Assembly: GCA_017483305.1 (NCBI GenBank)
Contig: JAFULC010000009.1
Location: 7,337 to 71,336, forward strand
Direction of reading: 5' to 3'
DNA from: Clostridia bacterium
GTDB lineage: Bacteria > Bacillota > Clostridia > Oscillospirales > CAG-272
DNA length: 64,000 nt
In this document: positions 26,031 to 51,482 of the stretch, one piece after another
Layout of the letters: each line of letters starts with the position of its first letter
How positions within the stretch are numbered: position 1 is the first letter of the stretch
Position numbers and translations under genes: made by a program
Notes under the pieces: generated by a model
The model's input: the letters and a program-made list of their open reading frames with translations, nothing else
Database searches by the model: none
Told to the model about the DNA's origin: nothing

Positions 26031-26052
26031 AGTATGCCTCTCTTTTTCAATT

Positions 26053-31233: not shown

Positions 31234-31240
31234 AATAAAA

Positions 31241-31288
31241 ACCTCCCTTTGCTTTTGTGCTTTAATTATAGCACAAGCAAAAGGAGGT
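31241..31288 (-). promoter_or_regulatory. Long imperfect hairpin whose downstream arm contains the vWA gene SD and whose loop contains TATAAT
   Basis: acctccctttgcttttgtgct (31241-31261) pairs with agcacaagcaaaaggaggt (31270-31288). On the minus strand the hairpin is followed by TTTTTATT-ATG. Confidence 0.5.
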
Positions 31289-31310
31289 GTGGTCGCTCGT
31301 CGGGAGACTT

Positions 31311-32351: not shown

Positions 32352-32490
32352 AGTCTCACCTCCATTCGAAATATACGTGTGCTATCAGATATCCTCGATC
32401 TTGATCAGATTCGTCTTGCCCAACTGACCCACAAATGATCTTGTCTCCGCTTCTATTATACCACGATATTGCAATTAGTTCAATAGAGTT

Positions 32491-32554: not shown

Positions 32555-33289
32555 TTAACGCAGTGATTTAAGTACGTGACCTATTGCACCAAGCGTATCA
32601 AATTCATTTAGGAACTTGAATACGTAGGATTTTTCATAGATCGTCATTACGCCTGTGCTTGTATCAAACGCAAGCGACACCTGGAATCCCGTGTACAGCA
32701 GGAGTGCAACGCCAAGCGCCGCCATATATCCCACCACAGCACCCGAAACGAATCCGGTAACATGATCGAAGAAGGTCAGAATGACGTGATCGTCACTGCG
32801 GTCAACCTTGCGCTCGATCCACCAGAAGAATACTCTCGGGATCACGAAACAGACGATGTAACCGATGATAGTAGAAACCATCGCGATACAGGGGGTTGCG
32901 ATCTGAATTGCCATACCGTTTAATATCTCGGTGCTGGCCTCGGAATAGCTACCGTACTGTGCCTCAAGCTCCGCAAGACTGATTCCCTGATGATTGAGGA
33001 AGTTTACGAAGTTTTCGGGCAGATTTTCAAACAGCTGCACAAGATCGTAGCCGTTCGCATTTTTCTCAACGATGCTGGTAAGTGTCTTAAGCACTCCGCC
33101 AACGATCCAATCGTGAAGGAACAGGTCTGTAAGCAGGCCCGCAAGCCAAGGACCGAGAATAACCGAGCAGAAAACTGCAAGCCAGGTCTTTCCGATCTTT
33201 CTAACCGTTTTTGCAAATCCGAATTTTGTAAAAATGATTACGAATATCAAAAACAGTACTACGAGTATAGCATCAATTACAATTGACAT
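32555..33289 (-). CDS. cvpA: CvpA-family (colicin V production-like) membrane protein
   Basis: 244 aa, 4-5 TM. The N-terminus MSIVIDAILVVLFLIFVIIFTKFGFAKTVRK is typical of CvpA proteins. SD is GAGAGGAAA. Confidence 0.6.
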   Translation of the reverse strand: MSIVIDAILVVLFLIFVIIFTKFGFAKTVRKIGKTWLAVFCSVILGPWLAGLLTDLFLHDWIVGGVLKTLTSIVEKNANGYDLVQLFENLPENFVNFLNHQGISLAELEAQYGSYSEASTEILNGMAIQIATPCIAMVSTIIGYIVCFVIPRVFFWWIERKVDRSDDHVILTFFDHVTGFVSGAVVGYMAALGVALLLYTGFQVSLAFDTSTGVMTIYEKSYVFKFLNEFDTLGAIGHVLKSLR

Positions 33290-33324
33290 TTCTTTTTCCT
33301 CTCTATCAAATAATAATGCTAAAA

Positions 33325-36300
33325 TTACTTCTTGCTTCTCTTGTCGTTCTTTTTAGGCGACTCGAAAGCAATATAAAGCACACCTGCATCGGTAACGTAG
33401 AATCCGTATCCTCTTTCAAGAAGCTTCTGGGCGTTCTTGCCCTTCTTGCCAAGCTGATTGCGAGCAAGCGCAACCAAACGGGACGCGTTTCCGTTCTTGC
33501 ACAGAGTTTCCATAGCATACTTGGCCTGAGCCTTGGTGCTGAATCTGATTCCGACAACGAAATCACCCATTTCACCAGCGTTATATCTGAGTGCGGATTC
33601 GGAGAGGATACGAACGATCTCCTCTTCCTTGTAGGACTGCAAATATGCGTTGTGGTATCTGAAATACTCGTGGTTGGTATTATGGAACTTCTCAAGAGTC
33701 GGATACAAGGACTCTCTGGGATAGTGGAGAGGCTCCTGACCCTCGGGCGTGCGGATAAATTCCTCGAAAGGAGTACAGCAGTAGTCGTACCAAACCATAT
33801 CCTTCATTCTGTCGCCGCTCTTGGTGTTGGAGGAATCTCCCCAGGTAGCGTCGATATAGTAGCAATACTTGCCTATCTTCAGAATGTTGAATGCGTGGCA
33901 GCTGCCGCCGTCGTTGCTTACACGGCTTATCGTGTAACCGCAAACGATACCTACGGACTGCAACAGATACTGAAGCGCCGCAGCGTATCCCGCACAAACG
34001 ACCTTGTGCTCAACGAGTGCGCTATGCAACGATCTGAGCTTGTCATCCTGCTTTGTATCGCGATCCAATCCCGCGTCAAGACCAATGCCGTCATAATCAA
34101 GCGTCAGAATAAGTCTGCGGTAGATCGTCAGCAATGCCTTGTAAGGATCGGTCTTCTTGGTTATGCCTCTTGTAAAGGTCTTAGCTCCCTTGCGAAGCTC
34201 TGCCCTCTTCTTGTTGATCTGCTTGACGTCAAGCACTCCGTTTGCATTCTTGCAACGGAAATTATGTCTGACGGTCTCGCTGGTGTACATATAGGAGTTC
34301 AGCCAGAAGAGCTCGGGATAGTCACCCTTTATGTAGATAAAGACCTGCTCAAGCTCGGAGTCGGTAATTCCCTTACGGGATATAGGCTCCTCGCTATAGT
34401 TATAAGCGGCTCTCACGAGATCGTTATAAACACGGATCTTAGGATTGGTCTTCTCGTCCTCCTCGTAAGGAACGATGCGCTCACCGGGAGTGCCCTTCTT
34501 CTTAAGCAACGAGGAGAGCTTCTTGCTGCTCTTCTTTTTCTTGTCCTTCTTTTGAGACTTCTTCTTTGCGCTGTCGTCGTCCTCATCGGAGGTCTGATCG
34601 TCGTCAAGAGCGGGATCTCCGTCAACTACGTCATTATCAGTATTCTTATCGTCTTCAACGACCTTGTTGTCATCATCGACAACCTGATCATCGTCAACAA
34701 CAGGCTCTTCATCCACGACAGTATCGTCCTTTTTCTTCTTTTTAAAGAGATCGCGCAGAGAGAACTTCTTCTTTTCCTTCTTTTTCTTGGTGTCCTTATC
34801 GTCCTCCTCGGGAGTCTGATCGCCATCAACCACGTCATCAGTGACGGTGTTATCCTCATCGGAGATTTCGTCCTCGGCATCGCCAAGAAGCTCGTCAAAG
34901 TCTGTCTCGTTAGGCGCATTGATGTTATCGGTCATGAGATCGTTCGAGAATTCGCCGTCTCCGACATCATCCTCTTCCTCATCTCCGTCCTCGTCCTCGG
35001 GAAGCTCCTCCTCCCTGCCGTCCTCTGCCTTCTGATTGCGCAAATAACGCTTCCAGAATCTCGGAACCTTGTTGGGATCGTAGAGTCCGTCGGAGTAGTC
35101 CTCGTCGGTCTCATCCTCACCGTCATCCGACTGACCTCCGCCAAGCTCCTCGTACTTCATACGCAGGAAGCTGAAGCTGGTTCTTCTCGGACGGTCGGCA
35201 TCATTTACGGTGTCCTTCTTATCTTCGCTCTTTTCTTCGTCCTTATCCTTGGGAGTTTCGTTGGTATCCTCCTCGGTATTTTCATCCGACTCAGGAGTCT
35301 CGTCCGTGGATTCGTCCCCCGAATCCTTCTTCTCGTCAAGATCGTTGCAAGCTATATACTCCGCGATCTCGTCGAGCTTGGATTTAATAGTGACGTCGAG
35401 AGCCTCGAGTATCCAGTCTGCCGACTCGTCTTTTCCGATCGAGCGCAGATACAGAAGCTCCTCGTAATAGAGCTGAGCCGCCGCATAGTCGATCATAAGC
35501 TGATTATCCGACTGCCACATTCCGATAAGACCTCTGAGCAAGGACACACGGACGTTGGTAATAGGATCGTCGCGCTCGACGAATACGGTACGCTCGGTTG
35601 TATCCAAGCGATAATAATATTCACTGAGCGACTGCTCCTCCTTAAGATCGCCAACGGGATCAAACGCGGATTTAAGCACACCGATAGAGATCTCAGGATA
35701 AGTCTTCTTGAGATATTCTCTCATTTCGGCAAGCATATCGTCGAGCTTGTCGGGATCGTCAACTGTCTCGAAGCAATCAGCACAAATATAACGATTGTTA
35801 TCAAAGAGCGAATATCTGCCGCTCTCCATAACCTTGTGACAGAATGCACAACGCTTGGGCTTTTCGTCCTCAATATCGTCTCCCGCGGTCTCAACGTCGT
35901 GCTCTCCGAGGTCGGAAAGAAGGAGGTTGTATCCCTCGAGGAGCTTACAGCAGCCCTCAAGATCATAGCACTCGGGCAACTGATCGCCGCCGAAATAGAT
36001 GTAATGCTCAAGCTTAGGTCTTATCTTCAGCCAGTGGAGGTAGGAGTAGATATTTGCAAGGAATTCCTGCATATATCTTCCCGAAGGGTCATAAAGCCAA
36101 TCGAAAACGCCAACGTCCTCAAAGCAATCGTTAATAACGAAGAAGGTGATGCGGTTGGGATCGGTCTCGATGAACTCCTCACCGGGATGCTTCAGATAAG
36201 GATAAAGTGCCTTGATATGCTCTATCTCGGTCTCAGGCTCGACCGTTTCATCAAACGGCAGAGGCTCTGCAAGCACGGGACAGAAGGATATACAATGGTA

Positions 36301-39300
36301 AGATTTCGGGAAGATCGTTTTTGCGAACTCGTTGAATGCAGCAGCAAGGAGCAATCTCATGCCGTCCGTACACTCCATACGGGTCTCAAACTCGACCTTG
36401 AGAATACGTCCGTCGCCGATCTGTCTGGTGTGAGGATGCGGCACGTGGGGATTACCGTCGATACCGTCCTTGTGATAGAAGTCAAGAGTCTGCTTGTCGC
36501 TCGTAAGACCGTAGAAGCCGTACGTCTCGCCGATAAACTTGGCCTGACACTTGGTAACACGGATCTCCTCAAGCATAAGCTTTGTGTTGTGAAGAATACC
36601 GACCTTCTCGAAAGGAACGACCGAATCAACGCTGTATCTACGGAGATGAACGGTATCAAGACAGTTGCGGAGCTTGACGTTTTCGTGTCTGAGACAGATA
36701 ACGCGTCCGTCTGCCGAAATATGCTCGATCTCATACTCAGCGTTGTTATAAAGTATGCTCTGTCCAACGATATATTCAAGATGAACGCGACTCGGGAAGG
36801 AATCGAGCACACCGATGGTCTTATCGTTAAGACGAAGCTCAACGCGATCGTTGCAGTGAAGCAGACGGTCGAGAATCTCATGCATTCTGTTGAATACGAT
36901 GGTCTTCTCCTTCGTCAGCGTGTAGGAATCGACCTTTGCGGGATCGATAACGAGGTAAAAGTCCTTCGCACGATGTCCGATACTCTCTGCGAAGCATCTG
37001 TTCTCCTCCTGCTCGCTGTAATAAATGTCGGTGTCGCAGAGACCTGCAACAAGATATGCGGCAAGCTCACCGAGCTTAAGCTCATTTACAGGCTTACTTG
37101 CAACCAGACGCTTACAGAATACGGAGGAAATAATATCTCCTCTTTCAAGGCTGAAGGTGATGACCTCTCGCATCTTCTTCTCAAAATCCTTGACAAGAAT
37201 ACCGCCGTCGAGATCGAAGCTACAGAAAACGCGCATCAAGGAGAGCTTGTGGCGCTCAATATGCTCGGTAACTCTGGGCTGGATGAACGAAGAACGGTTG
37301 ATAAAGTCCTCCGTAGCCATCTTGGAGATATAGTATTCACGGAGCAAGTAGGGCTTGCTCAGAATGTGAACTATCGACTTTTTCTTTCCACGGAAACGTG
37401 TGCAGGCATAGATCGATGCAGAAAGGTTGCATCTGTGGTCCGAGTAGACCATGTAGTTTACGTCGGCAACGTCGCGGTGGAATTTATTGATCTCAACGTT
37501 GTGGCTTGCGAGTATCTTCTTCTCTGCGTGGTCGAGAGGAGATTCCGTGATAACTCTTACACCGTCAACGTTGTATTTGAAAGCAAGATTTGCGATGATA
37601 AACTCAAGGCTGGTCAGCTTCTGACCGTACTTGCTATAAATTCTGTGGCTCTTACTCTCCTTGTTCCACAGAACGTAGGATACCGACTCGTTTTCCTTTG
37701 CGCTACTGAAGGATAGCACGTGCTCAACGCCAAAGAATTTGGGCAGGCTGCTCGCCGCAAAGCCCTGATAGTAGTCGAGAGTAAGGAATGCGAATCTGAT
37801 ACGTCCCTCGGTAGCCTTAATAAGACTGTTGGAGATAAGCGAGCAGAGGTAGCTGTCGAACGAAATAACGCGGTCAGCATCAACGAATATTGCATCGGAT
37901 ACCTCTTCAAAGAACGCAGGATATCTCGAAACCATAGCTCCGTCGCGGAAATCCTGAGGCGACGCTATAAGTATGTCTGCCTGATCAAGTCTCTCCTCGG
38001 AGGTGTAAACTCGCCAGTTATGCGCCGCGGAGCTACCCGTGAGTCTCATAAGACGCTCGCAGATAAATCTGCGAAGGGTTATTCTCTCCTCGGGGTCCTC
38101 GACTACGAAGATCAAACGCTCGCCCGAAAGCAGACGTATGTACGTATATGCAACCAGATATTCACCCAGCTCGGAATAGAAGGACGCCGCAAAATAGACG
38201 TGCTCGTCGTTAAACATAGCGTCGATGCACTCCATATAGCTCTCTACGGTGTGTCCCGCATAAGAATCCATCTGCTTACGGATGTATTCGAGAGCACTTG
38301 CGTAGGTGCTGCTGGTAGGCTTATACTTGGTTACCTTGTCACGCTTTGCCTCGGGATAGTAGCGCAAAGAGTGCTCGCCGTCAAAGCGTTTTTTGAGCTC
38401 GGAGAGGACCTTGCGAAGACGCGCCTCAAGCTTATTGTCGGCAACGGCCTTCTTTTCCTCCTCCTTCTTCTCTTCCTCCTCTTCCTCAGGCTTCGCGGTA
38501 TTGAAAATATTGCAAAGCTCCTGAAGGAAAATTACCGAGAATACGGGATACAGATACCAATCGCCTATCTTAAATACGTTTATAAGCATATCGTAGAGCA
38601 TCTTCGGCAACGGGAAGAAGACCGAAAGAAGAACTACGCCTATAAAGAACAGATACAGGATCTCAACAAGCACAATAAAGCACTGGAGAACCATTCTCGT
38701 GCGAACTACCCAGCTGCGCGCGTACTGGAACTGGTCTCCCTCAAAGAAGAGACCCAAGAAGAACGAGGATACGGGACCGTAAAGCTTTTCCTCAGGCTCG
38801 TTTTTGTCCTCACCGTCGCCCTCGGTGCCCTCGGGCTTCTCCTCATCCGTCTCCTCCTCGTCATCATCGTCCTCAAGAGTATGAAGGAACATGGCGATTC
38901 GGTTGTTCTTGCGCTTCTTTTTGCTGTCCTCCTCGGAGGGTGTTTCCTCCTCGGTGACCTCGGCTGCCTCTTGATCCTTTTTCTTGTCAAGATGCTTTTT
39001 GGTAAGCTTGAACAAGGGATCGACAACAAGCTTCTTAAGCAATATCTTAAGGAATACGAATGCATAAAGAGCAAGAAGATTTACGATCACAAGCTTGATC
39101 GCGAAAATGATGAAATCCACCTGCGAATTCAAGGAATTGACCGCATTCGTGATCAGCTTACCGACAAACGGTATTCCGCCGATAAACGCCGAAAGCTTAT
39201 TGAAAAGCGAGAAGATTATTGCAAATACAATAAACTCAACGGCAATAAGAATAAGGAAAAATACGTTTTTTCTGTTATGCGGCGTGTGATACTTTACCGA

Positions 39301-39405
39301 CGACGCAAACGAAAGCTTCTTGAGCTTTCCGGGAAGCGGAATGAACGGATATGATAAGATGAGCAGTATGCCGATAGTTAAAATGACCTTTATCGCTGTT
39401 ATCAC
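33325..39405 (-). CDS. Giant (2026 aa) polytopic membrane protein: N-terminal TM region, degenerate SF2-helicase-like core, Cys4 ribbon, acidic/basic disordered region, C-terminal transglutaminase-like Cys-His-Asp domain
   Basis: GTG start is the first possible start after an in-frame stop and overlaps the upstream TGA (GTGA). TM helices in aa 1-330. ILIASPQDF / AIFVDADRV resemble helicase motifs Ib/II, but no Walker A is present. CAFCHKV...YICADCF lies at 35770-35860. VCAGYAAALQYLLQSVGIVCGY...SCHAFNIL...YYIDATWGD gives C1804/H1837/D1852. Confidence 0.85.
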   Translation of the reverse strand: MITAIKVILTIGILLILSYPFIPLPGKLKKLSFASSVKYHTPHNRKNVFFLILIAVEFIVFAIIFSLFNKLSAFIGGIPFVGKLITNAVNSLNSQVDFIIFAIKLVIVNLLALYAFVFLKILLKKLVVDPLFKLTKKHLDKKKDQEAAEVTEEETPSEEDSKKKRKNNRIAMFLHTLEDDDDEEETDEEKPEGTEGDGEDKNEPEEKLYGPVSSFFLGLFFEGDQFQYARSWVVRTRMVLQCFIVLVEILYLFFIGVVLLSVFFPLPKMLYDMLINVFKIGDWYLYPVFSVIFLQELCNIFNTAKPEEEEEEKKEEEKKAVADNKLEARLRKVLSELKKRFDGEHSLRYYPEAKRDKVTKYKPTSSTYASALEYIRKQMDSYAGHTVESYMECIDAMFNDEHVYFAASFYSELGEYLVAYTYIRLLSGERLIFVVEDPEERITLRRFICERLMRLTGSSAAHNWRVYTSEERLDQADILIASPQDFRDGAMVSRYPAFFEEVSDAIFVDADRVISFDSYLCSLISNSLIKATEGRIRFAFLTLDYYQGFAASSLPKFFGVEHVLSFSSAKENESVSYVLWNKESKSHRIYSKYGQKLTSLEFIIANLAFKYNVDGVRVITESPLDHAEKKILASHNVEINKFHRDVADVNYMVYSDHRCNLSASIYACTRFRGKKKSIVHILSKPYLLREYYISKMATEDFINRSSFIQPRVTEHIERHKLSLMRVFCSFDLDGGILVKDFEKKMREVITFSLERGDIISSVFCKRLVASKPVNELKLGELAAYLVAGLCDTDIYYSEQEENRCFAESIGHRAKDFYLVIDPAKVDSYTLTKEKTIVFNRMHEILDRLLHCNDRVELRLNDKTIGVLDSFPSRVHLEYIVGQSILYNNAEYEIEHISADGRVICLRHENVKLRNCLDTVHLRRYSVDSVVPFEKVGILHNTKLMLEEIRVTKCQAKFIGETYGFYGLTSDKQTLDFYHKDGIDGNPHVPHPHTRQIGDGRILKVEFETRMECTDGMRLLLAAAFNEFAKTIFPKSYHCISFCPVLAEPLPFDETVEPETEIEHIKALYPYLKHPGEEFIETDPNRITFFVINDCFEDVGVFDWLYDPSGRYMQEFLANIYSYLHWLKIRPKLEHYIYFGGDQLPECYDLEGCCKLLEGYNLLLSDLGEHDVETAGDDIEDEKPKRCAFCHKVMESGRYSLFDNNRYICADCFETVDDPDKLDDMLAEMREYLKKTYPEISIGVLKSAFDPVGDLKEEQSLSEYYYRLDTTERTVFVERDDPITNVRVSLLRGLIGMWQSDNQLMIDYAAAQLYYEELLYLRSIGKDESADWILEALDVTIKSKLDEIAEYIACNDLDEKKDSGDESTDETPESDENTEEDTNETPKDKDEEKSEDKKDTVNDADRPRRTSFSFLRMKYEELGGGQSDDGEDETDEDYSDGLYDPNKVPRFWKRYLRNQKAEDGREEELPEDEDGDEEEDDVGDGEFSNDLMTDNINAPNETDFDELLGDAEDEISDEDNTVTDDVVDGDQTPEEDDKDTKKKKEKKKFSLRDLFKKKKKDDTVVDEEPVVDDDQVVDDDNKVVEDDKNTDNDVVDGDPALDDDQTSDEDDDSAKKKSQKKDKKKKSSKKLSSLLKKKGTPGERIVPYEEDEKTNPKIRVYNDLVRAAYNYSEEPISRKGITDSELEQVFIYIKGDYPELFWLNSYMYTSETVRHNFRCKNANGVLDVKQINKKRAELRKGAKTFTRGITKKTDPYKALLTIYRRLILTLDYDGIGLDAGLDRDTKQDDKLRSLHSALVEHKVVCAGYAAALQYLLQSVGIVCGYTISRVSNDGGSCHAFNILKIGKYCYYIDATWGDSSNTKSGDRMKDMVWYDYCCTPFEEFIRTPEGQEPLHYPRESLYPTLEKFHNTNHEYFRYHNAYLQSYKEEEIVRILSESALRYNAGEMGDFVVGIRFSTKAQAKYAMETLCKNGNASRLVALARNQLGKKGKNAQKLLERGYGFYVTDAGVLYIAFESPKKNDKRSKK

Positions 39406-41471
39406 CGATCATCACTTCCTTTCTTCGGGAACATAGCCTCGATCGTCTCGATCGAGAATACCCTGTAAACTTTGTTATCCTTGGATCTGATAGGCTTGTT
39501 GACGTCGAACTCGCCCTCAACAGACTCATAAGGATCGAATATAGGCTCAACGTCGAGGTTATTAAGGATACCTGCAATGCGGTCCTTGACCTCGCGAAGC
39601 ATATCTCTGTGTCTCTGTATGTTGCGGTCTATAGCAACGTTAGCATCGTAAAAACGCTTCAACTGACGGATAGCGTATCTCTGACGCTCTATGTTAATAA
39701 GATCGATCTCGTAGCGGTGACGGATCTTGGACATCGAATAGGATTCCTTGCGTCTGCACTTTGCATAGCAAAGATTCATAGCCTCCTTGCACTTTCTCAG
39801 CTTACCGAGTATCGGAGCAAGGCGAATGATCGCCGCCAGAACGTAAAGACCTGCAAAAAGCATCAGCATATTGATCGCCAACAGCCAAACATTGATTCCC
39901 GAGCCGTAGTGAGCAAGCTGAAGCACGGTATAGGGCACGAATACGGCAATCATCGCGAGCAGCATTATGATAAGGTCGCCAAGCATCTTTTTGGGCAGGC
40001 AAGCCTTCGCGTTTACGTATTCGCGGTATATCTTGGTCGCGTTCTTCTTCTCTTCCTCAAAGTCAACGCTGATATAGTCGGCATCAAGAGCATCGGCAAA
40101 CAGATCCGATATCTTCTTCTGCTTGTCAGCAACAAGAGCGTCAAATTCTGCCTTGGAGGGACAGTAGGAGGTCTTTTTCAAAGCACCCTCGTGAATTCTC
40201 TCCTCAAATTCGATCTCCATGTTTCTCTCACGGGTCTCGTCTCTGCTGACAAGATATTTTTCCATTATATCGTCAAAGTCCTTGCGGTGATCCTCTGCAA
40301 CCTGCTCGGGAGTTCTCTCTGCCAGATAGCAGATCTTTTCATAGGTCTGCTCGACCGTGAGATTTTCCTTACCCAAGGAAAGAGGAATAGTATCCTGAGC
40401 GACTGCAGTGCCAAGCACCTCGTCGTAATCAGCTCCGAGATTGTCAGACAGTGCAATATATTTGGAATCGTTCGATTTAGCCACCTCAGATGCGATGCAG
40501 ACCTTGATCCACGCGGTCTCAAGCACTTCTTTAAGACGGTTGGCGTCAAGTCTGGATATCTTGATCTCGCCGTCTCGATCGAAGGACTCTTCTCTTTCAT
40601 ACATACGTATCAGATACAGCGACAAGGACAGAGTATCAAAGGCAAGTCTTGCCTTTCCTCCGCCGTAGCTCGTAACGTAATAGTAGCGTCTGATAGTAGA
40701 GCGAACGCCCATACGGTCGCGCAGCGCCTCAAAAAACTGACCGAGAGTCATCTTTGTCGAGCCGTAGGGATAGTCCTTCAGATAGAAGTTAAGTGACACC
40801 GTCGGGGTGCAATAGAGCGAGAAGGAGCTATACTGTACAAGGTCCTGCACCTCGGGGACAACGAATTCCTCGTCAACCTCATCGTCATAGCGCACGACGG
40901 GAAGATCCTCCGCGCCGTCCTTGGACTTATCCTTCTTTTTGGATTTTTTGTCACCCTCAAGCTCTTCCTTCTGCTTGTTCAGCTCCTCGACCTTAAGGCG
41001 CGCCTCCTCCTCAGAGCCCTCTACAACGTCAAGTCCTCCGAGCACCTGCTTAAGCTGCTCCTCAGCACCCTGAACGAACTCGTAGCGCTCGAGCTTGGAG
41101 TTCTGAACGTAGTAGATCTCAAAATCCTCGGCATAAAGCTCACGAAGCTCGAGATATGCGATCAGATTGTCCATCAGATACGCCTCGATATAGGGCATAT
41201 AAAGGCTGATGTCAACACCGGACTCACCGCCAAATCCAAGTCTGCCGTAAGGAACTCTTACACGGTCAAAGCCGTAAAAGTCGATAAGCACGGCAATTCT
41301 GAATCTGTCTGCGCCAAGAATATTCTGCTTTTCGAATATTTCCTGAGCGCACTGCTTTATCTCAGAAAGCAAACAGTTATGCCAACGGATCTTGTTGTAT
41401 CCGGCAAGGTCGAACAGTCTGTCACTGTCAAACGTTTTGTTCTCGGACGTATTTATTACATACGTTAACAT
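39402..41471 (-). CDS. Hypothetical 689-aa protein with central acidic coiled-coil-like segment and a TM hairpin near residue 500-560
   Basis: ATG with a GGGGA SD. Two hydrophobic helices (LIIMLLAMIAVFVPYTVLQL / VWLLAINMLMLFAGLYVLAAIIRL, nt ~39807-39985). No known motif recognised. Confidence 0.8.
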   Translation of the reverse strand: MLTYVINTSENKTFDSDRLFDLAGYNKIRWHNCLLSEIKQCAQEIFEKQNILGADRFRIAVLIDFYGFDRVRVPYGRLGFGGESGVDISLYMPYIEAYLMDNLIAYLELRELYAEDFEIYYVQNSKLERYEFVQGAEEQLKQVLGGLDVVEGSEEEARLKVEELNKQKEELEGDKKSKKKDKSKDGAEDLPVVRYDDEVDEEFVVPEVQDLVQYSSFSLYCTPTVSLNFYLKDYPYGSTKMTLGQFFEALRDRMGVRSTIRRYYYVTSYGGGKARLAFDTLSLSLYLIRMYEREESFDRDGEIKISRLDANRLKEVLETAWIKVCIASEVAKSNDSKYIALSDNLGADYDEVLGTAVAQDTIPLSLGKENLTVEQTYEKICYLAERTPEQVAEDHRKDFDDIMEKYLVSRDETRERNMEIEFEERIHEGALKKTSYCPSKAEFDALVADKQKKISDLFADALDADYISVDFEEEKKNATKIYREYVNAKACLPKKMLGDLIIMLLAMIAVFVPYTVLQLAHYGSGINVWLLAINMLMLFAGLYVLAAIIRLAPILGKLRKCKEAMNLCYAKCRRKESYSMSKIRHRYEIDLINIERQRYAIRQLKRFYDANVAIDRNIQRHRDMLREVKDRIAGILNNLDVEPIFDPYESVEGEFDVNKPIRSKDNKVYRVFSIETIEAMFPKKGSDDR

Positions 41472-41569
41472 TTATGTTTTTCCCCTTTCCAAAGCGGCAC
41501 GGAGCATCCGTAGCCGTTTTGAAGTACTCATTCCGCTTTCGCGGATAAAATAATTTCGATTGATTTTAT

Positions 41570-44386
41570 TCAAACTGCGGAGGGATCGATGTGCGGAAGC
41601 ATACCTTCCTTCGAAAAGCCTCTCTGCAGATGAGGATCCCACATATCCGTGGATTGCTCCTCCTTAATAACGAGCGTTTTCTTATAAGCCCTGTAATACG
41701 AAGGATCTGCCGAGCATTCGCAGAACGCCTCGAGATAGCAAAGCTTAAGCTGAGTAATATCCCTGAAAACGTAGATCGTATCCTTGGATACCGTACTGCT
41801 GAACGCCGCCTGTCCGTCAGACTCTCCCGCAAGAGCAAGAAGCGATACGATCGCAGCCTCTCCGACTCGTCCGCGGAAAAGCTCGGAATTTTGCTCGATA
41901 TACTCACGTATCTCCTCGGAAACGAGCGATACCGTGCGATGCTTGATAGCTCTTATCGCCTTGTAGGAATCATAAGCATCTGGAACCTGATACAGAAGCG
42001 CGGGGGTCTTCGCCAAGAACGCCTTGTTGAGAGCGCACGAGCTATCCTTCTGAGTCAGAATGACCTCAAGAACGTTTCTGTCAAGCTCCTTTGCATAAAA
42101 TCCGCTATCGTGACACTCAAACGCAATTCTGTCCGCCAAAGCGTTGGTCAGACAGACTGCGACACCGTCGCTACCCAGATTTCTGAGCGTAAGCTCGCCG
42201 AGCAGAGCATCTTGCTGTCGAATATAGTCGACCTTTTTGTCGCTATCCTTTATAAATTCAGCAAATTTATCGAAGAAAGCGAGCTTCTCTTCCTCGGAGG
42301 TCCCCACGTAATAGGTCAAGCCTCTGTCCCCGATACATCTGCGAAGCGCCGTGGTAACGTCCGACTCAAGCTCTCCAAAGCCAACTGAAAGCGATGCAAA
42401 TACCTTGTGATACGCCATAATAACGTCGCCAAGCACATCAAGGAATGCTTCTCCGCGCAGAAGTCTGAAGATATCGCGAAGATGCTCGTAAGAGCTTCCG
42501 AGATCGTATATAAACATACGTCTATCGTTGATCGAGCCCTTAACCATTCCGCCCTGACCGCCTGTCAGAGCCAAAAATCTTCCCGAACCGTATTTTTTCG
42601 AAGCATATTTGCAATCGAGCGCGACGTTCTGGTTTGCTTTCATTATCCACTGTGGGAACTCGTTTTCCGTGATCGGATCGCTCTGATTTATAAGTCTCAG
42701 CGGAGCGATCTCGCCATCGATCTCCCGATAAAGTGTGCAGAGACGGACAAGCGCGAAAACGGGATTGATAAACGCTCCGTCATCCTTCAAAAGCTTATCG
42801 ACAAGTGAGATTCCGCACTCCTCCGAGCCGTCCGCGTCAAGCTTTGCACGTATTCTGTCTCGGAATTTAGCCTCTCCCTCGATAACGCGCTTAAATCCGA
42901 CTGCATAAACGTCCTGAAGCCACTCGGCGCAGTTTATTGCGGTCTCCTCGAGTCTTACTCGCTCCTCGGCATTCGCCTTGACCAGCCTTCTCTTCTTCTC
43001 GTCCGCCAATTGCTCAAGCTCCTCGGATTCCTCAAGCACAGCCTGAATATTCATCGCGCTTTCACTGTAAAATTCTCTGTCGATCTCGTCAAGAAGCTCG
43101 CCGACAAGCTTTTTGGGCAGGCGATCTATCGGAGCGGTATCATCTTCGGCGTTCTCAAAGACACGACCAAGCAACGCGCTATCGCTTTCGCCGTCCTCAA
43201 CCACCGTCGATGCGGCGGTAAGAATAGCATCGACGTAAGCGTCCGCCTTTCTGTCAAATTCCTTGCCCTCGTCAAAGCAATTCTGACGTTTTCTTGCCAA
43301 TTCCTTAAGCACCTTTTCGTGAAGATACGAAAGCTCACCGCTCTCCTTCTCAAAGGCGTTTCGGATGGCGATATATGATACGATGCTGTCTGTGGCATAT
43401 ATAGTCCTACATAGAGTCATACCGCCGTAGATCGCATCGGTCGTATTCAAATTTTGGTTATTTTGGTTGGAGGTCTCGGTGCTCTGAAGCTTACCCGTAG
43501 CGCAAAGCGTGATAATTGAATCTGCAAGCATCTCGGTATAGAGCGCAAGCTGTCTGACACCGGGCATACGGCGCACAAGATAGACCCTTCCAAACGGTTT
43601 CTTTTCATTTTTATTATACTCGGGAACAGAAGAATCGAAAAGCAAGCCAAGATACGGGTCGTCGTTTGATCCGATCCTGATAGGCTCATCCGAAGCCTTA
43701 TCTCCCGAAAGATTGATTGCCTGAAGCTCGCGAAGTGAAGCATACGCATTAGCTTTCGCCTTGACGCGTTGCTCGGGAGTCATAAGATCCTCGCAAACCT
43801 CGGGGAGAGTCAGTATAGCGGTCGACGTATCAACGACAGCACCCTTCTCCTCCAGATATTTTTTTACGTACATTACGACGGGCATAAACAATCCCGATCC
43901 GGTGCCTCCCGCCAAGGAAGCAACCGTGTATATTTCGACGTGAGTCGGCTCAACCTCAACGTTTTCGTCGGACTCCTCTCCGTCGCTCTCTTTGGCAACC
44001 AGAGCATCAAGGTTAGAGTGCAGCATCTCTGCGTTCTTCTCTTTTGAAAGGAAAGAGGTAAACGATAAAAGCGCCTTCATTCTCCACTGATTCGAGCCCT
44101 CGTTCATCGCGAGACCTTCAAAATACTCTACGCCGTCACTGTTACGGTCACAAGGAAACCACTCCTTCAAAATCTCGGGATCGAGAGTGTCGAGCACACG
44201 TCCGAGATTGGAGGCTTCAACCATAGGAATGATCACCGCATCGGAAATCTCTTCTAAGGTTCTTTCATCAGTATCAATAGCCAAAGCGTGTACAGCTTGC
44301 CCCTCTTTGCCCATTTTGCGCGCAAAAAGATCTGCAACCGCACATCCCATCTGACCTAATCCAAGCAAAAGAATTTGCTTTCCCAT
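41570..44386 (-). CDS. Tubulin/FtsZ-superfamily protein, 938 aa (tubulin/TubZ-type T1 loop)
   Basis: N-terminus ILLLGLGQMGCAVADLF (G-Q-x-G as in tubulin/TubZ/BtubAB). Exact tubulin signature AGGTGSG at aa 159-165 (nt ~43892-43912). Paralogous to the upstream gene (EWFPCD, QWRxK, DMWxPHL). Confidence 0.8.
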   Translation of the reverse strand: MGKQILLLGLGQMGCAVADLFARKMGKEGQAVHALAIDTDERTLEEISDAVIIPMVEASNLGRVLDTLDPEILKEWFPCDRNSDGVEYFEGLAMNEGSNQWRMKALLSFTSFLSKEKNAEMLHSNLDALVAKESDGEESDENVEVEPTHVEIYTVASLAGGTGSGLFMPVVMYVKKYLEEKGAVVDTSTAILTLPEVCEDLMTPEQRVKAKANAYASLRELQAINLSGDKASDEPIRIGSNDDPYLGLLFDSSVPEYNKNEKKPFGRVYLVRRMPGVRQLALYTEMLADSIITLCATGKLQSTETSNQNNQNLNTTDAIYGGMTLCRTIYATDSIVSYIAIRNAFEKESGELSYLHEKVLKELARKRQNCFDEGKEFDRKADAYVDAILTAASTVVEDGESDSALLGRVFENAEDDTAPIDRLPKKLVGELLDEIDREFYSESAMNIQAVLEESEELEQLADEKKRRLVKANAEERVRLEETAINCAEWLQDVYAVGFKRVIEGEAKFRDRIRAKLDADGSEECGISLVDKLLKDDGAFINPVFALVRLCTLYREIDGEIAPLRLINQSDPITENEFPQWIMKANQNVALDCKYASKKYGSGRFLALTGGQGGMVKGSINDRRMFIYDLGSSYEHLRDIFRLLRGEAFLDVLGDVIMAYHKVFASLSVGFGELESDVTTALRRCIGDRGLTYYVGTSEEEKLAFFDKFAEFIKDSDKKVDYIRQQDALLGELTLRNLGSDGVAVCLTNALADRIAFECHDSGFYAKELDRNVLEVILTQKDSSCALNKAFLAKTPALLYQVPDAYDSYKAIRAIKHRTVSLVSEEIREYIEQNSELFRGRVGEAAIVSLLALAGESDGQAAFSSTVSKDTIYVFRDITQLKLCYLEAFCECSADPSYYRAYKKTLVIKEEQSTDMWDPHLQRGFSKEGMLPHIDPSAV

Positions 44387-44509
44387 GAAGATTTCTCCCT
44401 TCGTTTCCCTGTTTTTTCCCCGCCTCGCCCCCGAGAATAAGGATCCTCGGGAAGCGAAGCGTTTTTGCTATGAGGCGAAAGCCTCACGGCTTATGTAGTG
44501 TTGTGGCAA

Positions 44510-47500
44510 TTATGCCTTAGCATCCTCAGCGGGTGCGGATGCTATCTTCTTGGAGCGATTCTTTATAGCATTAAGAACGCTCTTGACCTTAGAGGAAGGT
44601 CTGTTGTAATCGAATACGGAATTGATAAGCACCTTACCGGTTTCATCCATGGGCATATCATCCGAAATAGTATAGAATACGTCTGCTGCCTGGAGCCAGT
44701 TAACAAGCTGAGTAAAGTGAGCTGCACACTCGTTGCCTGCTCTGCAAACGATCTCTGCGCCTGCGAAGGACTCGTATACCTTGCTGAGCTGCTGCTTGTA
44801 AACCTGAATGAAGCGCTCGGGTGTAGTCTCGGGGCTGGTGCGGTGAGAGATCATCTCCTTGAAGGTCTTGTAAAGAACTCTAAGGATTCTCTCTGCATCG
44901 TCACAGTCTCTGCCAAGCTCTTCGCTTGTCTTGATCATGTAAGCAAACTCAAGTGCGGTAGGACCTACGCGATCGTTCCACTCACCGTCAGCGGTGGGTC
45001 TCTGCTCTGTCTTTCTCGAGGAATCAGCGTAGAGGCTCTCGGTCAGGATTCTGATGATAGGCGAGTTGGTAAGAGTCGCCTCAAGATTTCTGACCTCACC
45101 CTCGTTGTCGCTTGCAAGGCTGGGAAGCGCATTCTTCTGACGGAGGACGTCAGCATCAAAGCGTGCACTCCACTTTTCAACCAGCTCATCCTCGTTACGC
45201 ATCCAAGCGAGAAGCTGAGCGATGTTCTTGTTGTTGATCCACTTTCCTTCAGGATCGGTGATCTTAGTACCGTTGCAGGAGAAGTAGTAGCGTCCGCGAG
45301 CCTCACCCATACCGTCGGTATAACGGATAGTGCCGCTCTGGAAGCCGTAGATAAGAGCCTTAACCATCTTTTCATCGCAAGCCTGCTCCATCTTTGCGTT
45401 CATGTAAGGCAGGCAGCCACGCTTGTTGAGGTTGTTGCCGAGGTGGGGGTTCCACATATCGGTCTCATATCTCTTATATCTTGCAAGAGCCTCGGTGTAG
45501 TTCTTGAAGTATACACAGTCCTCGCCAAGCTCGTTGAACTTCGCAATGCGGAGAGGAGTAATATCCATAACCTCACCGGTGCAATAGAGAACCTGATCGG
45601 GGATAGAATCAACGATAGCAACTCTTGCAGAGCTGTTACCCGAGAAGTCGCGGATGAACGCCTCTGCGCAAGCCTTGAGCATAGCGCCCTCGCTGTTCTG
45701 ATCGTTAGGAATGCTCAGACCGAACTTTTCAGCATTTCTCTTAATGTATCTTGCAGTGTTCTTGGACATCATGAATACCATAATGTGAGAAGGAACTACG
45801 AGATCGTCCTCAACAGATGCAACGTCGAGTCTGAGAGAAGGAATAGCAAGATCCTGAGCTACGGAGAAGGATACGCGAAGCGCGTCGTCGATCTCCTTGG
45901 AGGAAGCGCCGTCACCGCAAGAGGTAACGATAGCTTCAACTACGTTGTAGGAAGCAATATTGCCAAAGAGCTCACTCTTAGCGATAGAGGTGCGGTAAGC
46001 CGCGATCATGCTGGAGAAGAGCGAACGGTAAGCGCTGGAGTCCTTATCGTTGAAGCCTGTATCCTCAGAGCGCTCTGCAACTGCGGATGCGAATACGGAA
46101 GCGAATACGCCTCTACCAACGATATCGTCGGTATCAGCAACAGCCTCGCTGGTAACAGGTCCGTTACCCTCTTCAAGAGTAAGTCTGATGCTTTCCTTGT
46201 TCTTCTGCGAGCAATATACGTTGATGATACTGTCGATAGCATCCTCGTCCTTACGGAGAGCATCCTTCGTAAGATCCTCAAGCATTTCCTTTTCCTTCTC
46301 AAAGCGATTGAAGAAGTTACGGTACTTAGCGATAAGAAGGTCGACGTCAGCTGCAATGCGGGAGTATACCTGGAAGGAAACGAGCTCATAAGCCTCGTTA
46401 GCAACGTTGTTCGCGATCTGCTGAACGTCGTTGTGAAGCGCTTCCATATCTGCCGTTGCATTGGTTCTCTTGGAGTTGTACTCCTCAGGCTCTACGTCAG
46501 CATCGGAGATCTCTGCGAAACGGGTCTTTCCAAGTCCGAGATATGCGCTCTTGGTGCGTCCGCCCTTGTCATCAAGAGTAAGGAAGCCCTCAGGAAGCGC
46601 GGGAGCCTTGCGGAGCTTGAGCTCAGGCCAATCGTTAGGCTCTACGGAAAGCTTTTCGCTAAGAGCGATTCTGAACTGGCACAAACGGATCATAGCCGCA
46701 ACGGGATGTACCATCTTGCCGTTCTTGGTCTCGAGAAGGTTCTTAACAACCGAATACTTATCGCCGATAACGCCGATCTTCTTCTTTTCAAGAGTGATGA
46801 TAGCGTCTGCGGTGCTGGTAGGAATGCTCTTAACAGTATCGAAGCATCTGCGGTAGAACTTGTCGAGAATAGGACGGGAGTCTACAGCCGCGCTGATTAC
46901 GTTGGACTTGTCGAAAGTACCGCCGGAAAGATCTCTGGGGAATATGCCCTCAAGCTCTGCATCGATAGATGCCGCAACGGGAACCTTGCTGGAAATATAG
47001 CCTTCAATTGTCTCAAGGAAGAGCTCGCCGATAGTTTCGGAGCGGCGCTCGCCCTTTTCGTTGTACTGGTCAACACCGCGCTCAACGAGAGAGATGACCT
47101 CGTCGCAGTTTTCATCCTGCTTCTCCTCAACCTTCTCGATAAGCATTCTTGCATAAGCGTCGTTCTCCATAATGAAGGTACGCTTCATTGCCTTTGCTTC
47201 TCTGCCCTTTTCGGCGATAGCATTTTCAACTGCCTGGTGAATGATCAGCCATTCGCCGTTGCAGGAATCGTATGTCTTCTTGCATGCGAGATACTCAAGA
47301 ACCGAATCCTTGGGGAAGCGGATCTGCGAGGTAGAAATACCGGCGTAGATAGCGTTGCTACCGTTGTTCTGCGAACGAACGAGCTCGTGGTTGGAGAATT
47401 CGCTGTCGAAGGCAGCGCCGATCTCGGTACAAATAATGGTATAAAGCGAGTTAGCAAGCACCATGTCGTGTGCTGCAACAGAGTTCAGACCGGGGATACG

Positions 47501-51453: not shown

Positions 51454-51482
51454 ATTATATACCCTTTTTTTTCACAAGTCAA
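51454..51482 (-). promoter_or_regulatory. Consensus SigA-type promoter of the vWA/tubulin-like operon
   Basis: Minus strand: TTGACT (51482-51477) - 17 nt - TATAAT (51459-51454), about 55 nt upstream of ATG 51399. Confidence 0.6.

What the first reader, a model, noticed from the sequence alone, without database searches (positions are those of the whole stretch)
33700..34450. A transglutaminase-like cysteine-protease domain encoded alongside tubulin homologues, a possible bacterial parallel to tubulin-modifying enzymes
Seen directly: the C-terminal ~250 aa of the giant protein carry the Cys-His-Asp transglutaminase-core arrangement. By topology they are predicted to be cytoplasmic, the same compartment as the two tubulin-like proteins. 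Established knowledge: in eukaryotes the tubulin detyrosinases (vasohibins) are transglutaminase-like cysteine proteases, and tubulin is also a transglutaminase substrate. Inference, speculative: this domain may process or cross-link the tubulin-like proteins, for example the extra C-terminal tail of the 1263-aa paralogue, or it may be released or activated by their polymerisation.
Basis: inference. Interest (0 to 1): 0.55.

Follow-up and report, generated by a model that had tools for sequence, protein, structure and literature searches.

The report
Cysteine-protease module of a tubulin-like operon
The end of a 2026-residue membrane protein really is a transglutaminase-like cysteine-protease domain locked into a conserved gut-Clostridia operon with two tubulin-like genes, and it appears to have taken over from an older zinc protease in the same protein; whether it acts on the tubulin-like proteins is untested.

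Summary
Residues about 1653-2015 of the giant ORF (window 33325-39405, minus strand) form a transglutaminase-like papain-fold domain. Its triad is Cys1804, His1837 and Asp1852. The triad is invariant in 41 close orthologues and in all 47 transglutaminase-like (TG)-bearing relatives found.

The domain belongs to an operon: vWA membrane protein, two Tubulin_2 (FtsZl1) paralogues, a 689-aa membrane protein, the giant protein with the TG domain. This order held in 43 of 43 related loci with room to show it. The TG part is fused to the giant protein in 24 loci and is a separate adjacent gene in 19.

The giant protein matches the "B12" component of the vWA-FtsZl1 operons described in 2010. It has N-terminal membrane helices, a helicase-like core without a P-loop, a 4-Cys zinc ribbon and a zincin domain. 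Across 154 family representatives, an intact HExxH motif and a TG domain almost exclude each other. The window has RGLIGMWQ where relatives have HELTHFWQ.

I read the TG domain as a cytoplasmic peptidase that replaced the ancestral zinc peptidase. Action on the tubulin-like proteins stays plausible but unshown. The domain is not vasohibin-like.

The parts
33361..34449 (-). Transglutaminase-like (TglA-like) papain-fold module, aa 1653-2015 of the giant protein
   Evidence: An HMM built from 41 orthologues matches aa 1653-2015 at E 1e-167. PDB 9crn matches by sequence at E 6e-12. The AF2 model has pLDDT 94.2. Foldseek to 9crn gives E 4.4e-15, TM 0.66/0.70.
33994..33996 (-). Catalytic Cys1804 codon (VVCAGYA)
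   Evidence: Invariant in 41/41 and 47/47. It sits at the N-terminus of a helix in the model.
33895..33897 (-). Catalytic His1837 codon (CHAFN)
   Evidence: Invariant. It aligns with the His of 9crn.
33850..33852 (-). Catalytic Asp1852 codon (YIDATWGD)
   Evidence: Invariant. It aligns with the Asp of 9crn.
34450..35349 (-). About 300-aa highly charged, low-complexity linker (aa 1353-1652) joining the B12 core to the transglutaminase-like module
   Evidence: Seen directly in the translation. This is where the gene is split in 19 of 43 related loci.
35512..35535 (-). Degenerate zincin motif RGLIGMWQ (aa 1291-1298), at the position where relatives have HELTHxWQ
   Evidence: Motif survey of 154 family representatives. 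No HExxH anywhere in the giant protein.
35773..35850 (-). 4-Cys zinc ribbon (C1186, C1189, C1208, C1211)
   Evidence: All four Cys are invariant in 31 sequences. Similarity to ClpX-type and double zinc ribbons is weak and not significant.
35866..38415 (-). MrfA-like SF2 helicase-fold core plus beta-rich domains (aa 331-1180), without a Walker A P-loop
   Evidence: The AF2 model has pLDDT 83.9 and pTM 0.81. Foldseek finds the DUF1998 helicase MrfA (6znp) at E 6e-18, then Brr2, Hel308 and RecQ. The invariant FYSE.GEYL occupies the place of GxGK[ST].
38506..39405 (-). N-terminal membrane region of the giant protein (aa 1-300), about five hydrophobic helices
   Evidence: Hydropathy scan. The topology was assigned by hand with the positive-inside rule, so it is an inference.
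33325..39405 (-). Whole giant ORF (2026 aa): the B12-type protein fused to the transglutaminase-like module
   Evidence: The identical ORF is found in three assemblies.
39402..41471 (-). 689-aa protein with two C-terminal membrane helices, in the position of 'B5'. Its stop overlaps the giant protein's start by 4 nt.
   Evidence: Conserved in all 46 loci at 28-49% identity. No Pfam or PDB match.
41570..44386 (-). Tubulin-like paralogue B (938 aa)
   Evidence: PF13809 at E 1.7e-26. The T1 and T4 motifs are present but variable among orthologues.
44510..48301 (-). Tubulin-like paralogue A (1263 aa)
   Evidence: PF13809 at E 3.6e-35. GVGGTGS and AGGTGSG are strictly conserved among orthologues. 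It is closer than paralogue B to the single tubulin-like gene of other operon classes.
48382..51399 (-). 1005-aa vWA-type membrane protein: N-terminal signal or membrane helix, DNSGS MIDAS-like motif, membrane helix near aa 800-825
   Evidence: Homologue P0180 carries Pfam VWA and VWA_2. Homologues lie directly upstream of the tubulin-like genes. Pfam does not detect vWA in the window copy itself.
32555..33289 (-). CvpA-like small membrane protein (244 aa), an accessory last gene of the unit
   Evidence: Weak Colicin_V match at E 6.5e-6. Present in only 2 of 46 related loci.
51454..51482 (-). Promoter-like site TTGACT-17-TATAAT upstream of the vWA gene, preceded by a terminator-like hairpin at 51635-51666
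   Evidence: Consensus scan only.

Best explanation
The flagged region encodes a catalytically competent, cytoplasmic, transglutaminase-like (TG) Cys-His-Asp domain. It is the enzymatic output module of the B12 subunit of a membrane-associated operon.

The operon is: vWA protein, FtsZl1 tubulin-like protein(s), B5, then B12. B12 has membrane helices, a helicase-like scaffold with no P-loop, a zinc ribbon, and ancestrally a gluzincin peptidase (HExxH...EGHA).

In the lineage of this window, a TG-like domain was added to the C-terminus on a long flexible linker. The zinc peptidase motif then decayed to RGLIGMWQ. The TG domain therefore most likely works as a thiol peptidase or amidase doing the job the zincin did. 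That job would be cutting a protein at the membrane-bound assembly built by the vWA, tubulin-like and B5 proteins.

Shown here: the fold, the invariant triad, the conserved gene order, repeated fusion and splitting, and the near-exclusive pattern of zincin versus TG.

Inferred: peptidase chemistry rather than cross-linking, the cytoplasmic location, and action within the complex.

Unknown: the substrate. The tubulin-like proteins are one candidate among several.
For: - Fold and triad.
- Gene order vWA, TubA, TubB, 689-aa protein, giant protein, TG holds in 43/43 loci with room. TG is fused in 24 and adjacent in 19.
- The family search found 457 relatives of the giant core.
- Among 154 representatives that show the motif region, HExxH is intact in 65; 63 of these lack TG and 2 have it.
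- The motif is degenerate in 89. Of these, 42 have fused TG and 44 are split forms of the window's clade, whose loci carry an adjacent TG gene.
- The other 3 were checked one by one.
- Class I loci L052 and L055 (HExxH) have no TG gene downstream.
- Loci L053 and L057, with fused TG, keep the same vWA, Tubulin_2, B5, B12 order.
- In a neighbour-joining tree, the degenerate-motif TG forms make one large clade. Two HExxH+TG forms nest among the intact-zincin forms.
- The TG triad stays invariant while the zincin motif decays.
- Stand-alone TG orthologues have no signal peptide.
Against: - No biochemical evidence exists. Peptidase chemistry, as opposed to transamidase or deamidase chemistry, cannot be read from sequence.
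- The counts are of 50%-identity clusters, not independent events. The pattern may rest on only two or three events.
- Two representatives (P0209, P0215) keep both an intact HExxH and a TG domain, so the two are not strictly alternatives.
- One representative (P0273) has a decayed motif and no TG domain, so a peptidase is not always needed.
- In one locus (L061) the adjacent TG-like protein is a lipoprotein, so it is outside the cell.
- The window's own Pfam score is below the curated cut-off.
- The membrane topology was assigned by hand, not by a dedicated predictor.
Confidence: 0.55

Rival explanations
1. One reading: the domain directly modifies the two tubulin-like proteins. It would trim a tail, for example in the extra C-terminal part of the 1263-aa paralogue, or cross-link protofilaments. 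That would make it a bacterial counterpart of tubulin-modifying enzymes.
For: - Strict co-occurrence with Tubulin_2 genes in every locus seen.
- The same predicted compartment.
- Tethering to a membrane scaffold encoded in the same operon.
- Eukaryotic tubulin carboxypeptidases also come in two kinds: transglutaminase-like vasohibins (PMC4866520) and zinc metallopeptidases KIAA0895L/MATCAP (PMC10499314). This mirrors the two kinds of B12 module found here. The parallel is an analogy only.
Against: - No vasohibin appears among the top 50 structural matches, and the triad type differs.
- The class I zincin region matches DUF6782, BSP and M1-type zincins, all below threshold. No DUF1704 (the MATCAP family, from my own knowledge) appeared.
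- No C-terminal motif is shared by the tubulin-like proteins of the different classes.
- The domain's fusion partner is B12, not a tubulin-like protein.
Confidence: 0.18
2. The operon is a biological-conflict (anti-phage or anti-invader) system. The extracellular vWA protein senses a trigger and the tubulin-like proteins assemble using GTP. The B12 peptidase, zincin or transglutaminase-like, is then the effector that cuts host or invader proteins.
For: - Kaur et al. 2020 (PMC7159879, section 29) describe Firmicute systems with two tubulin-plus-coiled-coil genes and vWA genes as conflict systems.
- The same paper notes transglutaminase-like thiol peptidases as rare effector domains of vWA-MoxR systems.
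- Swapping of unrelated peptidase domains is typical of effector modules.
- Some loci lie next to mobile or immunity-type genes: TIR-LRR, transposase and relaxase, D5 primase.
Against: - No PADLOC model matches any of the seven proteins.
- The GAP1-N2 GTPase that defines the systems of Kaur et al. is not seen in this operon.
- The window's surroundings are ordinary chromosomal carbohydrate-metabolism genes.
- Gene order is stable across many species, which also fits a housekeeping role.
Confidence: 0.2
3. The domain is a non-catalytic protein-binding module, as in yeast Cyk3, and only helps assemble the complex.
For: One source names an orthologue 'transglutaminase/protease-like cytokinesis protein 3', the COG5279 label. 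Transglutaminase-like pseudoenzymes are known (own knowledge).
Against: Cys, His and Asp, and the flanking G-Y and W, are invariant down to about 27% identity. A scaffold would not need this.
Confidence: 0.04
4. The domain acts outside the cell on the wall or on surface proteins, like many secreted bacterial transglutaminase-like proteins.
For: - Its nearest named relatives include a Mycoplasma lipoprotein family and the Streptococcus suis surface TGase 4xz7 (the identity of 4xz7 is from my own knowledge).
- In L061 the adjacent transglutaminase-like protein has a lipoprotein signal.
Against: - There is no membrane helix after aa ~300 in a 2026-aa chain that also holds a helicase-like fold and a zinc ribbon.
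- Thirty-nine of the 40 aligned stand-alone orthologues show no hydrophobic N-terminus. The remaining one, P0034, is a chimeric gene call.
Confidence: 0.03

Closest known systems
vWA - FtsZl1 - B5 - B12 operons (Makarova and Koonin 2010, Biol Direct 5:33; for example Ruminococcus lactaris RUMLAC_01526-01529)
   Same: - Same gene order and sizes.
- FtsZl1 corresponds to Pfam Tubulin_2.
- B12 is membrane-associated and has a zinc finger and a zincin region.
- Class I relatives found here have this exact layout.
   Different: - The window has two tubulin-like paralogues instead of one.
- Its zincin motif is degenerate.
- It adds a transglutaminase-like module, which that paper and its supplements never mention.
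- I could not align RUMLAC_01526 directly. The match to 'B12' rests on architecture and gene order.
Streptococcus pyogenes TglA (PDB 9CRN), a transglutaminase-like domain protein
   Same: Whole-length fold match at TM 0.66-0.70, and sequence match at E 6e-12. The Cys-His-Asp triad aligns, and the N- and C-terminal subdomains are shared.
   Different: Only about 17% identity in the structural alignment. TglA is a free-standing 379-aa protein. I found no paper on its function.
Vasohibin-SVBP tubulin detyrosinases
   Same: Both belong to the transglutaminase-like, papain-fold cysteine peptidase superfamily, and both are linked to a tubulin-family protein.
   Different: Vasohibins use Cys-His-Ser (PMC4866520). 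They are absent from the top 50 structural matches. No SVBP-like partner was looked for.
KIAA0895L/MATCAP tubulin metallocarboxypeptidases (PMC10499314)
   Same: They are zinc peptidases acting on tubulin. Like the vasohibin/MATCAP pair in eukaryotes, the B12 family has a zincin form and a transglutaminase-like form.
   Different: The class I zincin region gives only sub-threshold matches to DUF6782, BSP and M1. No homology to MATCAP was found. The parallel is by analogy.
GTPase/tubulin/vWA conflict systems and vWA-MoxR peptidase effectors (Kaur et al. 2020, eLife 9:e52696)
   Same: The Firmicute versions have two tubulin genes plus vWA proteins with membrane helices. Transglutaminase-like thiol peptidases occur as effectors in related systems.
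   Different: The defining GAP1-N2 GTPase, the FNIII-repeat protein and the YtkA-vWA protein are not seen here. B5 and B12 are not part of that description.
DUF1998 helicase MrfA (PDB 6ZNP)
   Same: It is the best structural match for the giant protein's core, at E 6e-18. Both have tandem RecA-like domains followed by a 4-Cys zinc module.
   Different: There is no Walker A motif; the invariant FYSE.GEYL takes its place. Identity is about 9%. The giant protein is membrane-anchored, and nothing suggests a role on DNA.

Membership tests
Transglutaminase-like / papain-fold thiol peptidase superfamily (Pfam PF01841 clan) | Cys-His-Asp triad in canonical order, with the Cys at the N-terminus of a helix | tested here: met
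   C1804, H1837 and D1852 are invariant in 41/41 and 47/47 sequences. In the model, helix 167-180 starts at the Cys.
Transglutaminase-like / papain-fold thiol peptidase superfamily (Pfam PF01841 clan) | Score above the Pfam gathering threshold | tested here: inconclusive
   The window copy scores 20.4 bits against a cut-off of 23. Relatives P0209 (34.4 bits) and P0240 (30.3 bits) pass. Many orthologues carry a precomputed PF01841 hit.
Transglutaminase-like / papain-fold thiol peptidase superfamily (Pfam PF01841 clan) | Fold similarity to a solved member | tested here: met
   Foldseek finds 9crn at E 4.4e-15 and TM 0.66/0.70, followed by 4xz7, 3isr, LapG and TgpA.
Transglutaminase-like / papain-fold thiol peptidase superfamily (Pfam PF01841 clan) | Thiol-dependent catalysis | not testable with these tools
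   This needs an enzyme assay comparing wild type with C1804A.
Vasohibin tubulin detyrosinases | Non-canonical Cys-His-Ser triad | tested here: not met
   The third residue is an invariant Asp. The definition is from PMC4866520.
Vasohibin tubulin detyrosinases | Closest structural neighbours are vasohibins | tested here: not met
   None appears in the top 50 PDB matches.
Vasohibin tubulin detyrosinases | Removes C-terminal residues of a tubulin | not testable with these tools
   This needs biochemistry.
FtsZl1 (Tubulin_2) - vWA operon of Makarova and Koonin | FtsZl1 / PF13809 gene | tested here: met
   Two copies, at E 3.6e-35 and 1.7e-26.
FtsZl1 (Tubulin_2) - vWA operon of Makarova and Koonin | Adjacent vWA-domain gene | tested here: met
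   The 1005-aa protein has homologues with Pfam VWA and VWA_2 (P0180, P0186) and a DxSxS-type motif. The window copy itself gets no Pfam vWA hit.
FtsZl1 (Tubulin_2) - vWA operon of Makarova and Koonin | B5 protein (about 660-760 aa) between FtsZl1 and B12 | tested here: inconclusive
   Position, size and two membrane helices fit. BLAST and phmmer find no similarity to the B5-position proteins of L053, L055 and L057.
FtsZl1 (Tubulin_2) - vWA operon of Makarova and Koonin | B12: membrane protein with a zinc finger and a zincin HExxH | tested here: inconclusive
   The membrane helices and the 4-Cys ribbon are present. The core is homologous to HExxH-bearing relatives (phmmer E 3.9e-57). The HExxH motif itself is lost, replaced by RGLIGMWQ.
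DUF1998 / MrfA-type SF2 helicases | Tandem RecA-like fold plus a Cys4 zinc module | tested here: met
   Foldseek finds 6znp at E 6e-18. The four Cys are invariant.
DUF1998 / MrfA-type SF2 helicases | Walker A GxGK[ST] and DExH motifs for ATP hydrolysis | tested here: not met
   The invariant FYSE.GEYL replaces the P-loop. Only a D-A-D remnant of motif II remains.
Known anti-phage defence systems (PADLOC-DB 2.0) | Match to any defence-protein model | tested here: not met
   No hits for the seven proteins of the region.

The most novel reading that the evidence does not exclude
The peptidase module of B12, zincin in most lineages and transglutaminase-like in this one, could be a dedicated processing enzyme for the FtsZl1 tubulin-like proteins. 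Bacteria would then have a post-translational 'tubulin code' written by the same two enzyme folds (transglutaminase-like and zinc metallopeptidase) that eukaryotes use for tubulin detyrosination, reached by convergence.
Probability: 0.12. Interest if true: 0.85.

Novelty: new variant of a known kind. Interest (0 to 1): 0.52.

Why it matters
FtsZl1 (Tubulin_2) operons were described in 2010, and I found no later paper that characterises them experimentally. Two rival readings exist: membrane remodelling and biological conflict.

Their largest subunit carries an exchangeable peptidase. The cysteine-peptidase form has an invariant triad, while the older zinc site decays. This gives the system a defined catalytic output and a single-residue handle, C1804, for experiments.

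It also turns the question "what does this tubulin-like machine do?" into a substrate hunt. Finally, it supplies a natural comparison set: zincin-only, both, and transglutaminase-like-only operons.

Tried and rejected
- PADLOC found nothing for any protein of the region.
- Pfam and PDB sequence searches gave nothing usable for the 689-aa protein, the 1005-aa protein, the tubulin-like C-terminal parts and the giant protein's pieces.
- Literature searches for 9CRN and TglA found no paper, so the function of the closest solved structure is unknown.
- I looked for a conserved C-terminal tail motif in the tubulin-like proteins that could mark a cleavage site. Only the window's clade shares a DMW[DN]PH motif, and nothing is common to all operon classes.
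- The 10-kb flanks of the genome loci did not reach the gene upstream of TubA. I settled that gene's identity with a separate homologue search and one context look-up.
- I considered that the 2026-aa fusion might be a frameshift artefact. I rejected this because the identical ORF occurs in three assemblies and 24 other species have fused genes.
- I considered the 1477-aa antisense ORF (33283-37716, plus strand) as a real gene. I rejected it because TTA, CTA and TCA codons are rare across the whole window, which produces such shadow ORFs.
- I considered the Macro, vWA-like and ADP-ribosylglycohydrolase genes downstream as part of the system. I rejected this because they are absent from the 46 related loci and have their own promoter-like site.
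- I tested the prediction that every decayed-zincin B12 has a transglutaminase-like domain. Of the three exceptions, one is cut by a contig end, one has an adjacent transglutaminase-like lipoprotein, and one has none.
Full report
**1. What is at the coordinates**

The finding lies in the last part of a 2026-codon ORF on the minus strand (33325-39405).
- Pfam's Transglut_core match is weak and below its cut-off (E 6.7e-4, 20.4 against 23 bits, aa 1743-1844).
- Three independent lines are strong.
  - NCBIfam's 'MAG6410 transglutaminase-related lipoprotein' matches at E 3.3e-14.
  - The solved 'Transglutaminase-like domain-containing protein' 9crn_A matches by sequence at E 6e-12 over about 240 residues. 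Its Cys, His and Asp line up with VVC(1804)AGYA, CH(1837)AFN and YID(1852)ATWGD.
  - The AlphaFold2 model of aa 1638-2026 has pLDDT 94.2 and pTM 0.92. Its best PDB match is again 9crn, Streptococcus pyogenes TglA, at E 4.4e-15 and TM 0.66/0.70 over the whole length.
- In the model, Cys1804 opens a helix, and His1837 and Asp1852 lie on or next to neighbouring strands. This is the papain/transglutaminase arrangement.
- The homologous module is about 360 residues (aa 1653-2015, nt 33361-34449).

**2. Is the triad conserved?**

- A search with the transglutaminase-like (TG) module found 70 strong relatives at 38-64% identity. All are from uncultured gut Clostridia.
- In an alignment of 41 of them, C, H and D are invariant.
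- In a wider set of 47 TG-bearing relatives of the giant protein, all three are again invariant. Some of these share only about 27% identity in this module. The flanking Gly-Tyr is also invariant, and the following Trp is kept in 46 of 47.

**3. Context in the window**

Upstream on the same strand lie four genes:
- a 689-aa protein with two membrane helices and no family match (39402-41471);
- a 938-aa Tubulin_2 protein (41570-44386);
- a 1263-aa Tubulin_2 protein (44510-48301);
- a 1005-aa protein with a signal or membrane helix, a DNSGS motif and a late membrane helix (48382-51399).

Homologues of the 1005-aa protein include some with Pfam VWA and VWA_2. They sit directly upstream of the tubulin-like genes elsewhere.

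A terminator-like hairpin and a strong promoter-like site precede the vWA gene. Another promoter-like site precedes the Macro gene downstream. The unit is therefore about 32555-51399. The rest of the window holds ordinary chromosomal genes for carbohydrate and central metabolism.

**4. Related loci**

- A scan of one genome per species found 44 loci. All are from metagenome-assembled gut Clostridia, such as Christensenellaceae, Candidatus Scatosoma and 'Eubacteriales'.
- The order TubA, TubB, 689-aa protein, giant protein, TG held in 43 of 43 loci where the contig reaches far enough. This count includes two loci fetched earlier.
- The giant protein and the TG module form one reading frame in 24 loci. 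In 19 they are two adjacent genes, with spacing from -86 to +87 nt.
- The window's fused 2026-aa product is found identically in three independent assemblies.
- Repeated fusion and splitting is strong evidence that the two parts work together.

**5. What the giant protein is**

- It starts with about five hydrophobic helices.
- Its core (aa 331-1352) has no significant Pfam or PDB sequence match. It folds with confidence, at pLDDT 83.9.
- The core most resembles the DUF1998 helicase MrfA (E 6e-18), followed by other SF2 helicases.
- The place of the Walker A loop is taken by an invariant FYSE.GEYL with no Gly-Lys-Ser/Thr. I therefore read it as a helicase-shaped scaffold, not an ATPase.
- A 4-Cys zinc ribbon follows (C1186, C1189, C1208, C1211), then a helical domain.
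- A charged linker of about 300 residues then joins the core to the TG module.

**6. Link to published work**

- Makarova and Koonin (2010, PMC2875224) defined FtsZl1, which is Pfam Tubulin_2 according to PMC9871819. They listed operons such as Ruminococcus lactaris RUMLAC_01526-01529.
- This is the layout seen here, minus the second tubulin-like gene and the TG module.
- 'Transglutaminase' appears nowhere in that paper or its supplements.
- Kaur et al. (2020, PMC7159879) read Firmicute operons with two tubulin genes and vWA genes as conflict systems. They note transglutaminase-like thiol peptidases as rare effectors in related vWA systems.

**7. The main new result**

A profile of the giant protein's core, run against 1.84 billion representative proteins, found 457 relatives at E below 1e-3 and 317 below 1e-10. 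In 154 of those I examined, the zinc ribbon is followed by an eight-residue motif ending in WQ.

| Motif | Representatives | TG status |
|---|---|---|
| HExxH intact (typically HELTHFWQ, then EGHA, a gluzincin signature) | 65 | 63 without TG (about 1260-1400 aa); 2 with fused TG (P0209, P0215) |
| Degenerate (RELTH, RMITE, RGLIG and others) | 89 | 42 with fused TG; 44 split forms of the window's clade; 3 exceptions |

- The loci of the window's clade carry an adjacent TG gene, but not every one of the 44 split representatives was checked individually.
- The window reads RGLIGMWQ (aa 1291-1298).
- Context look-ups agree with the table.
  - Two intact-zincin loci have the vWA, Tubulin_2, B5, B12 order and no TG gene.
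  - Two TG-fused loci keep the same four-gene order with a single tubulin-like gene.
- Sub-threshold Pfam matches of the intact region are all to zincin families: DUF6782, BSP and M1.
- A neighbour-joining tree puts all degenerate-motif TG forms in one large clade with three branches. The two 'both' forms fall among the intact-zincin forms. This suggests at least two gains of the TG module, with decay of the zinc site after one of them.
- The three exceptions, checked one by one:
  - one is cut by a contig end;
  - one has a Transglut_core gene 23 nt downstream, but that protein carries a lipoprotein signal and so is probably outside the cell;
  - one has no TG gene at all.

**8. Reading**

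The simplest account is that B12 ancestrally carried a zinc peptidase. A transglutaminase-like thiol peptidase was then added to its C-terminus, and selection on the zinc site relaxed. While the zincin motif decays, the TG triad stays invariant.

This argues that the TG module is catalytic. It also argues that it does peptidase-type work, as the zincin did, rather than cross-linking. It does not say what is cut.

The counts are of sequence clusters, not independent events. The two 'both' forms, and the one form with neither active site, show that the rule is not absolute.

**9. Compartment**

- By hand, the five helices fit an N-out, C-in topology. The lysine- and arginine-rich loops (aa 22-46 and 122-235) fall inside.
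- No hydrophobic segment follows aa ~300.
- The downstream domains, a helicase fold and a zinc ribbon, are of cytoplasmic type.
- The stand-alone TG orthologues begin with charged, often long, low-complexity N-termini and no signal peptide.

**10. The tubulin question**

- Both paralogues keep the T1 (GGxG) and T4 (GGTGSG) nucleotide-binding motifs. Paralogue A keeps them strictly, paralogue B loosely.
- Paralogue A is closer than B to the single gene of other operon classes, so B is the derived copy.
- I found no tail motif shared across classes that could mark a cleavage site.
- The domain is not specifically vasohibin-like (triad type from PMC4866520).
- One parallel is worth noting as analogy only. 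Eukaryotic tubulin carboxypeptidases are either transglutaminase-like (vasohibins) or zinc metallopeptidases (KIAA0895L/MATCAP, PMC10499314). The B12 family shows the same two folds in one position.
- I give direct action on the tubulin-like proteins a probability of about 0.15-0.2.

**11. Verdict**

The feature is a new variant of a known kind. It is a known, uncharacterised tubulin-like operon in which the peptidase module has been exchanged.

Noticed in passing
window 33283-37716 (+), 37720-39354 (+), 44498-48316 (+) and others: Very long antisense 'shadow' ORFs mirror the real genes codon for codon. One of 1272 aa lies opposite the 1263-aa tubulin-like gene. The cause is codon bias: TTA, CTA and TCA occur at only 2.7, 1.1 and 4.7 per thousand codons across 36 genes, and not at all in the 1263-aa gene.
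   Followed up: yes
window 29801-32351 (-): Just downstream of the operon lie a Macro-domain protein (346 aa), a small protein with a DRSGS motif and a weak VWA match (217 aa, E 0.023), and an ADP-ribosylglycohydrolase (260 aa). They have their own promoter-like site at 32455-32483 and are not conserved in the 46 related loci. A 44%-identical Macro protein does lie 5.7 kb downstream of the B12 gene in the unrelated class I locus L055 (19592-20659).
   Followed up: partly
window 35866-38415 (-); also all B12 relatives: The helicase-like core of the giant protein lacks a Walker A loop (invariant FYSE.GEYL). It keeps a D-A-D remnant of motif II and an RFRG that resembles motif VI. Distant zincin-type relatives show the same replacement (for example FSDFGEYL in P0205), so the loss looks ancestral to the family.
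   Followed up: partly
loci L003-L046, first 7 kb: The second tubulin-like paralogue has drifting nucleotide-binding motifs in some species (for example T-DYGSG in L007, DGTGSG in L023, GGTSSA in L021). The first paralogue is strictly conserved. In L029, L035, L037, L038, L041, L044 and L046 the conserved type is the second gene, so the order of the two paralogues is swapped.
   Followed up: partly
L061 9827-10819: A 330-aa Transglut_core protein with a lipoprotein signal (…LMLGGCSQ…) lies 23 nt downstream of a B12 gene. That B12's zincin motif has decayed independently (YELVRMWQ) inside the otherwise intact-zincin clade.
   Followed up: partly
L059 / L060 9843-11186: A B12 with a decayed motif (YKITRIWQ) and no transglutaminase-like partner is followed by a secreted 447-aa protein. 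I noticed an OmpA-like 'GYTDHKPIR' stretch in it by eye; no search was run on it. The locus has two Tubulin_2 genes, and the B5 position is split into 440- and 280-aa genes.
   Followed up: no
protein P0226 (1461 aa), C-terminal ~260 aa: In this B12 relative the zinc ribbon and peptidase region are replaced. An EEEE/KRKLEE repeat and an unrelated C-terminal domain (…GKYMWRVLDVEGETALLLAD…WWWLRSPG…) take their place. This would be a third kind of C-terminal module in the family.
   Followed up: no
L050 / L051 2590-4372 (-); L001 15789-20393: A TIR_2 plus leucine-rich-repeat protein lies about 2.5 kb upstream of the operon on the opposite strand, with a 686-aa gene of unknown family in between. 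A cluster of three serpin genes lies a few kb downstream of another copy of the operon.
   Followed up: no
window 23370-26081 (-): The pullulanase-like ORF (24441-26081; PUD, CBM_48) ends about 100 positions into the 446-position alpha-amylase catalytic profile. The next ORF (23370-24371, 333 aa) has no Pfam match at E 0.001. This may be a disrupted or frameshifted glycoside hydrolase gene.
   Followed up: no
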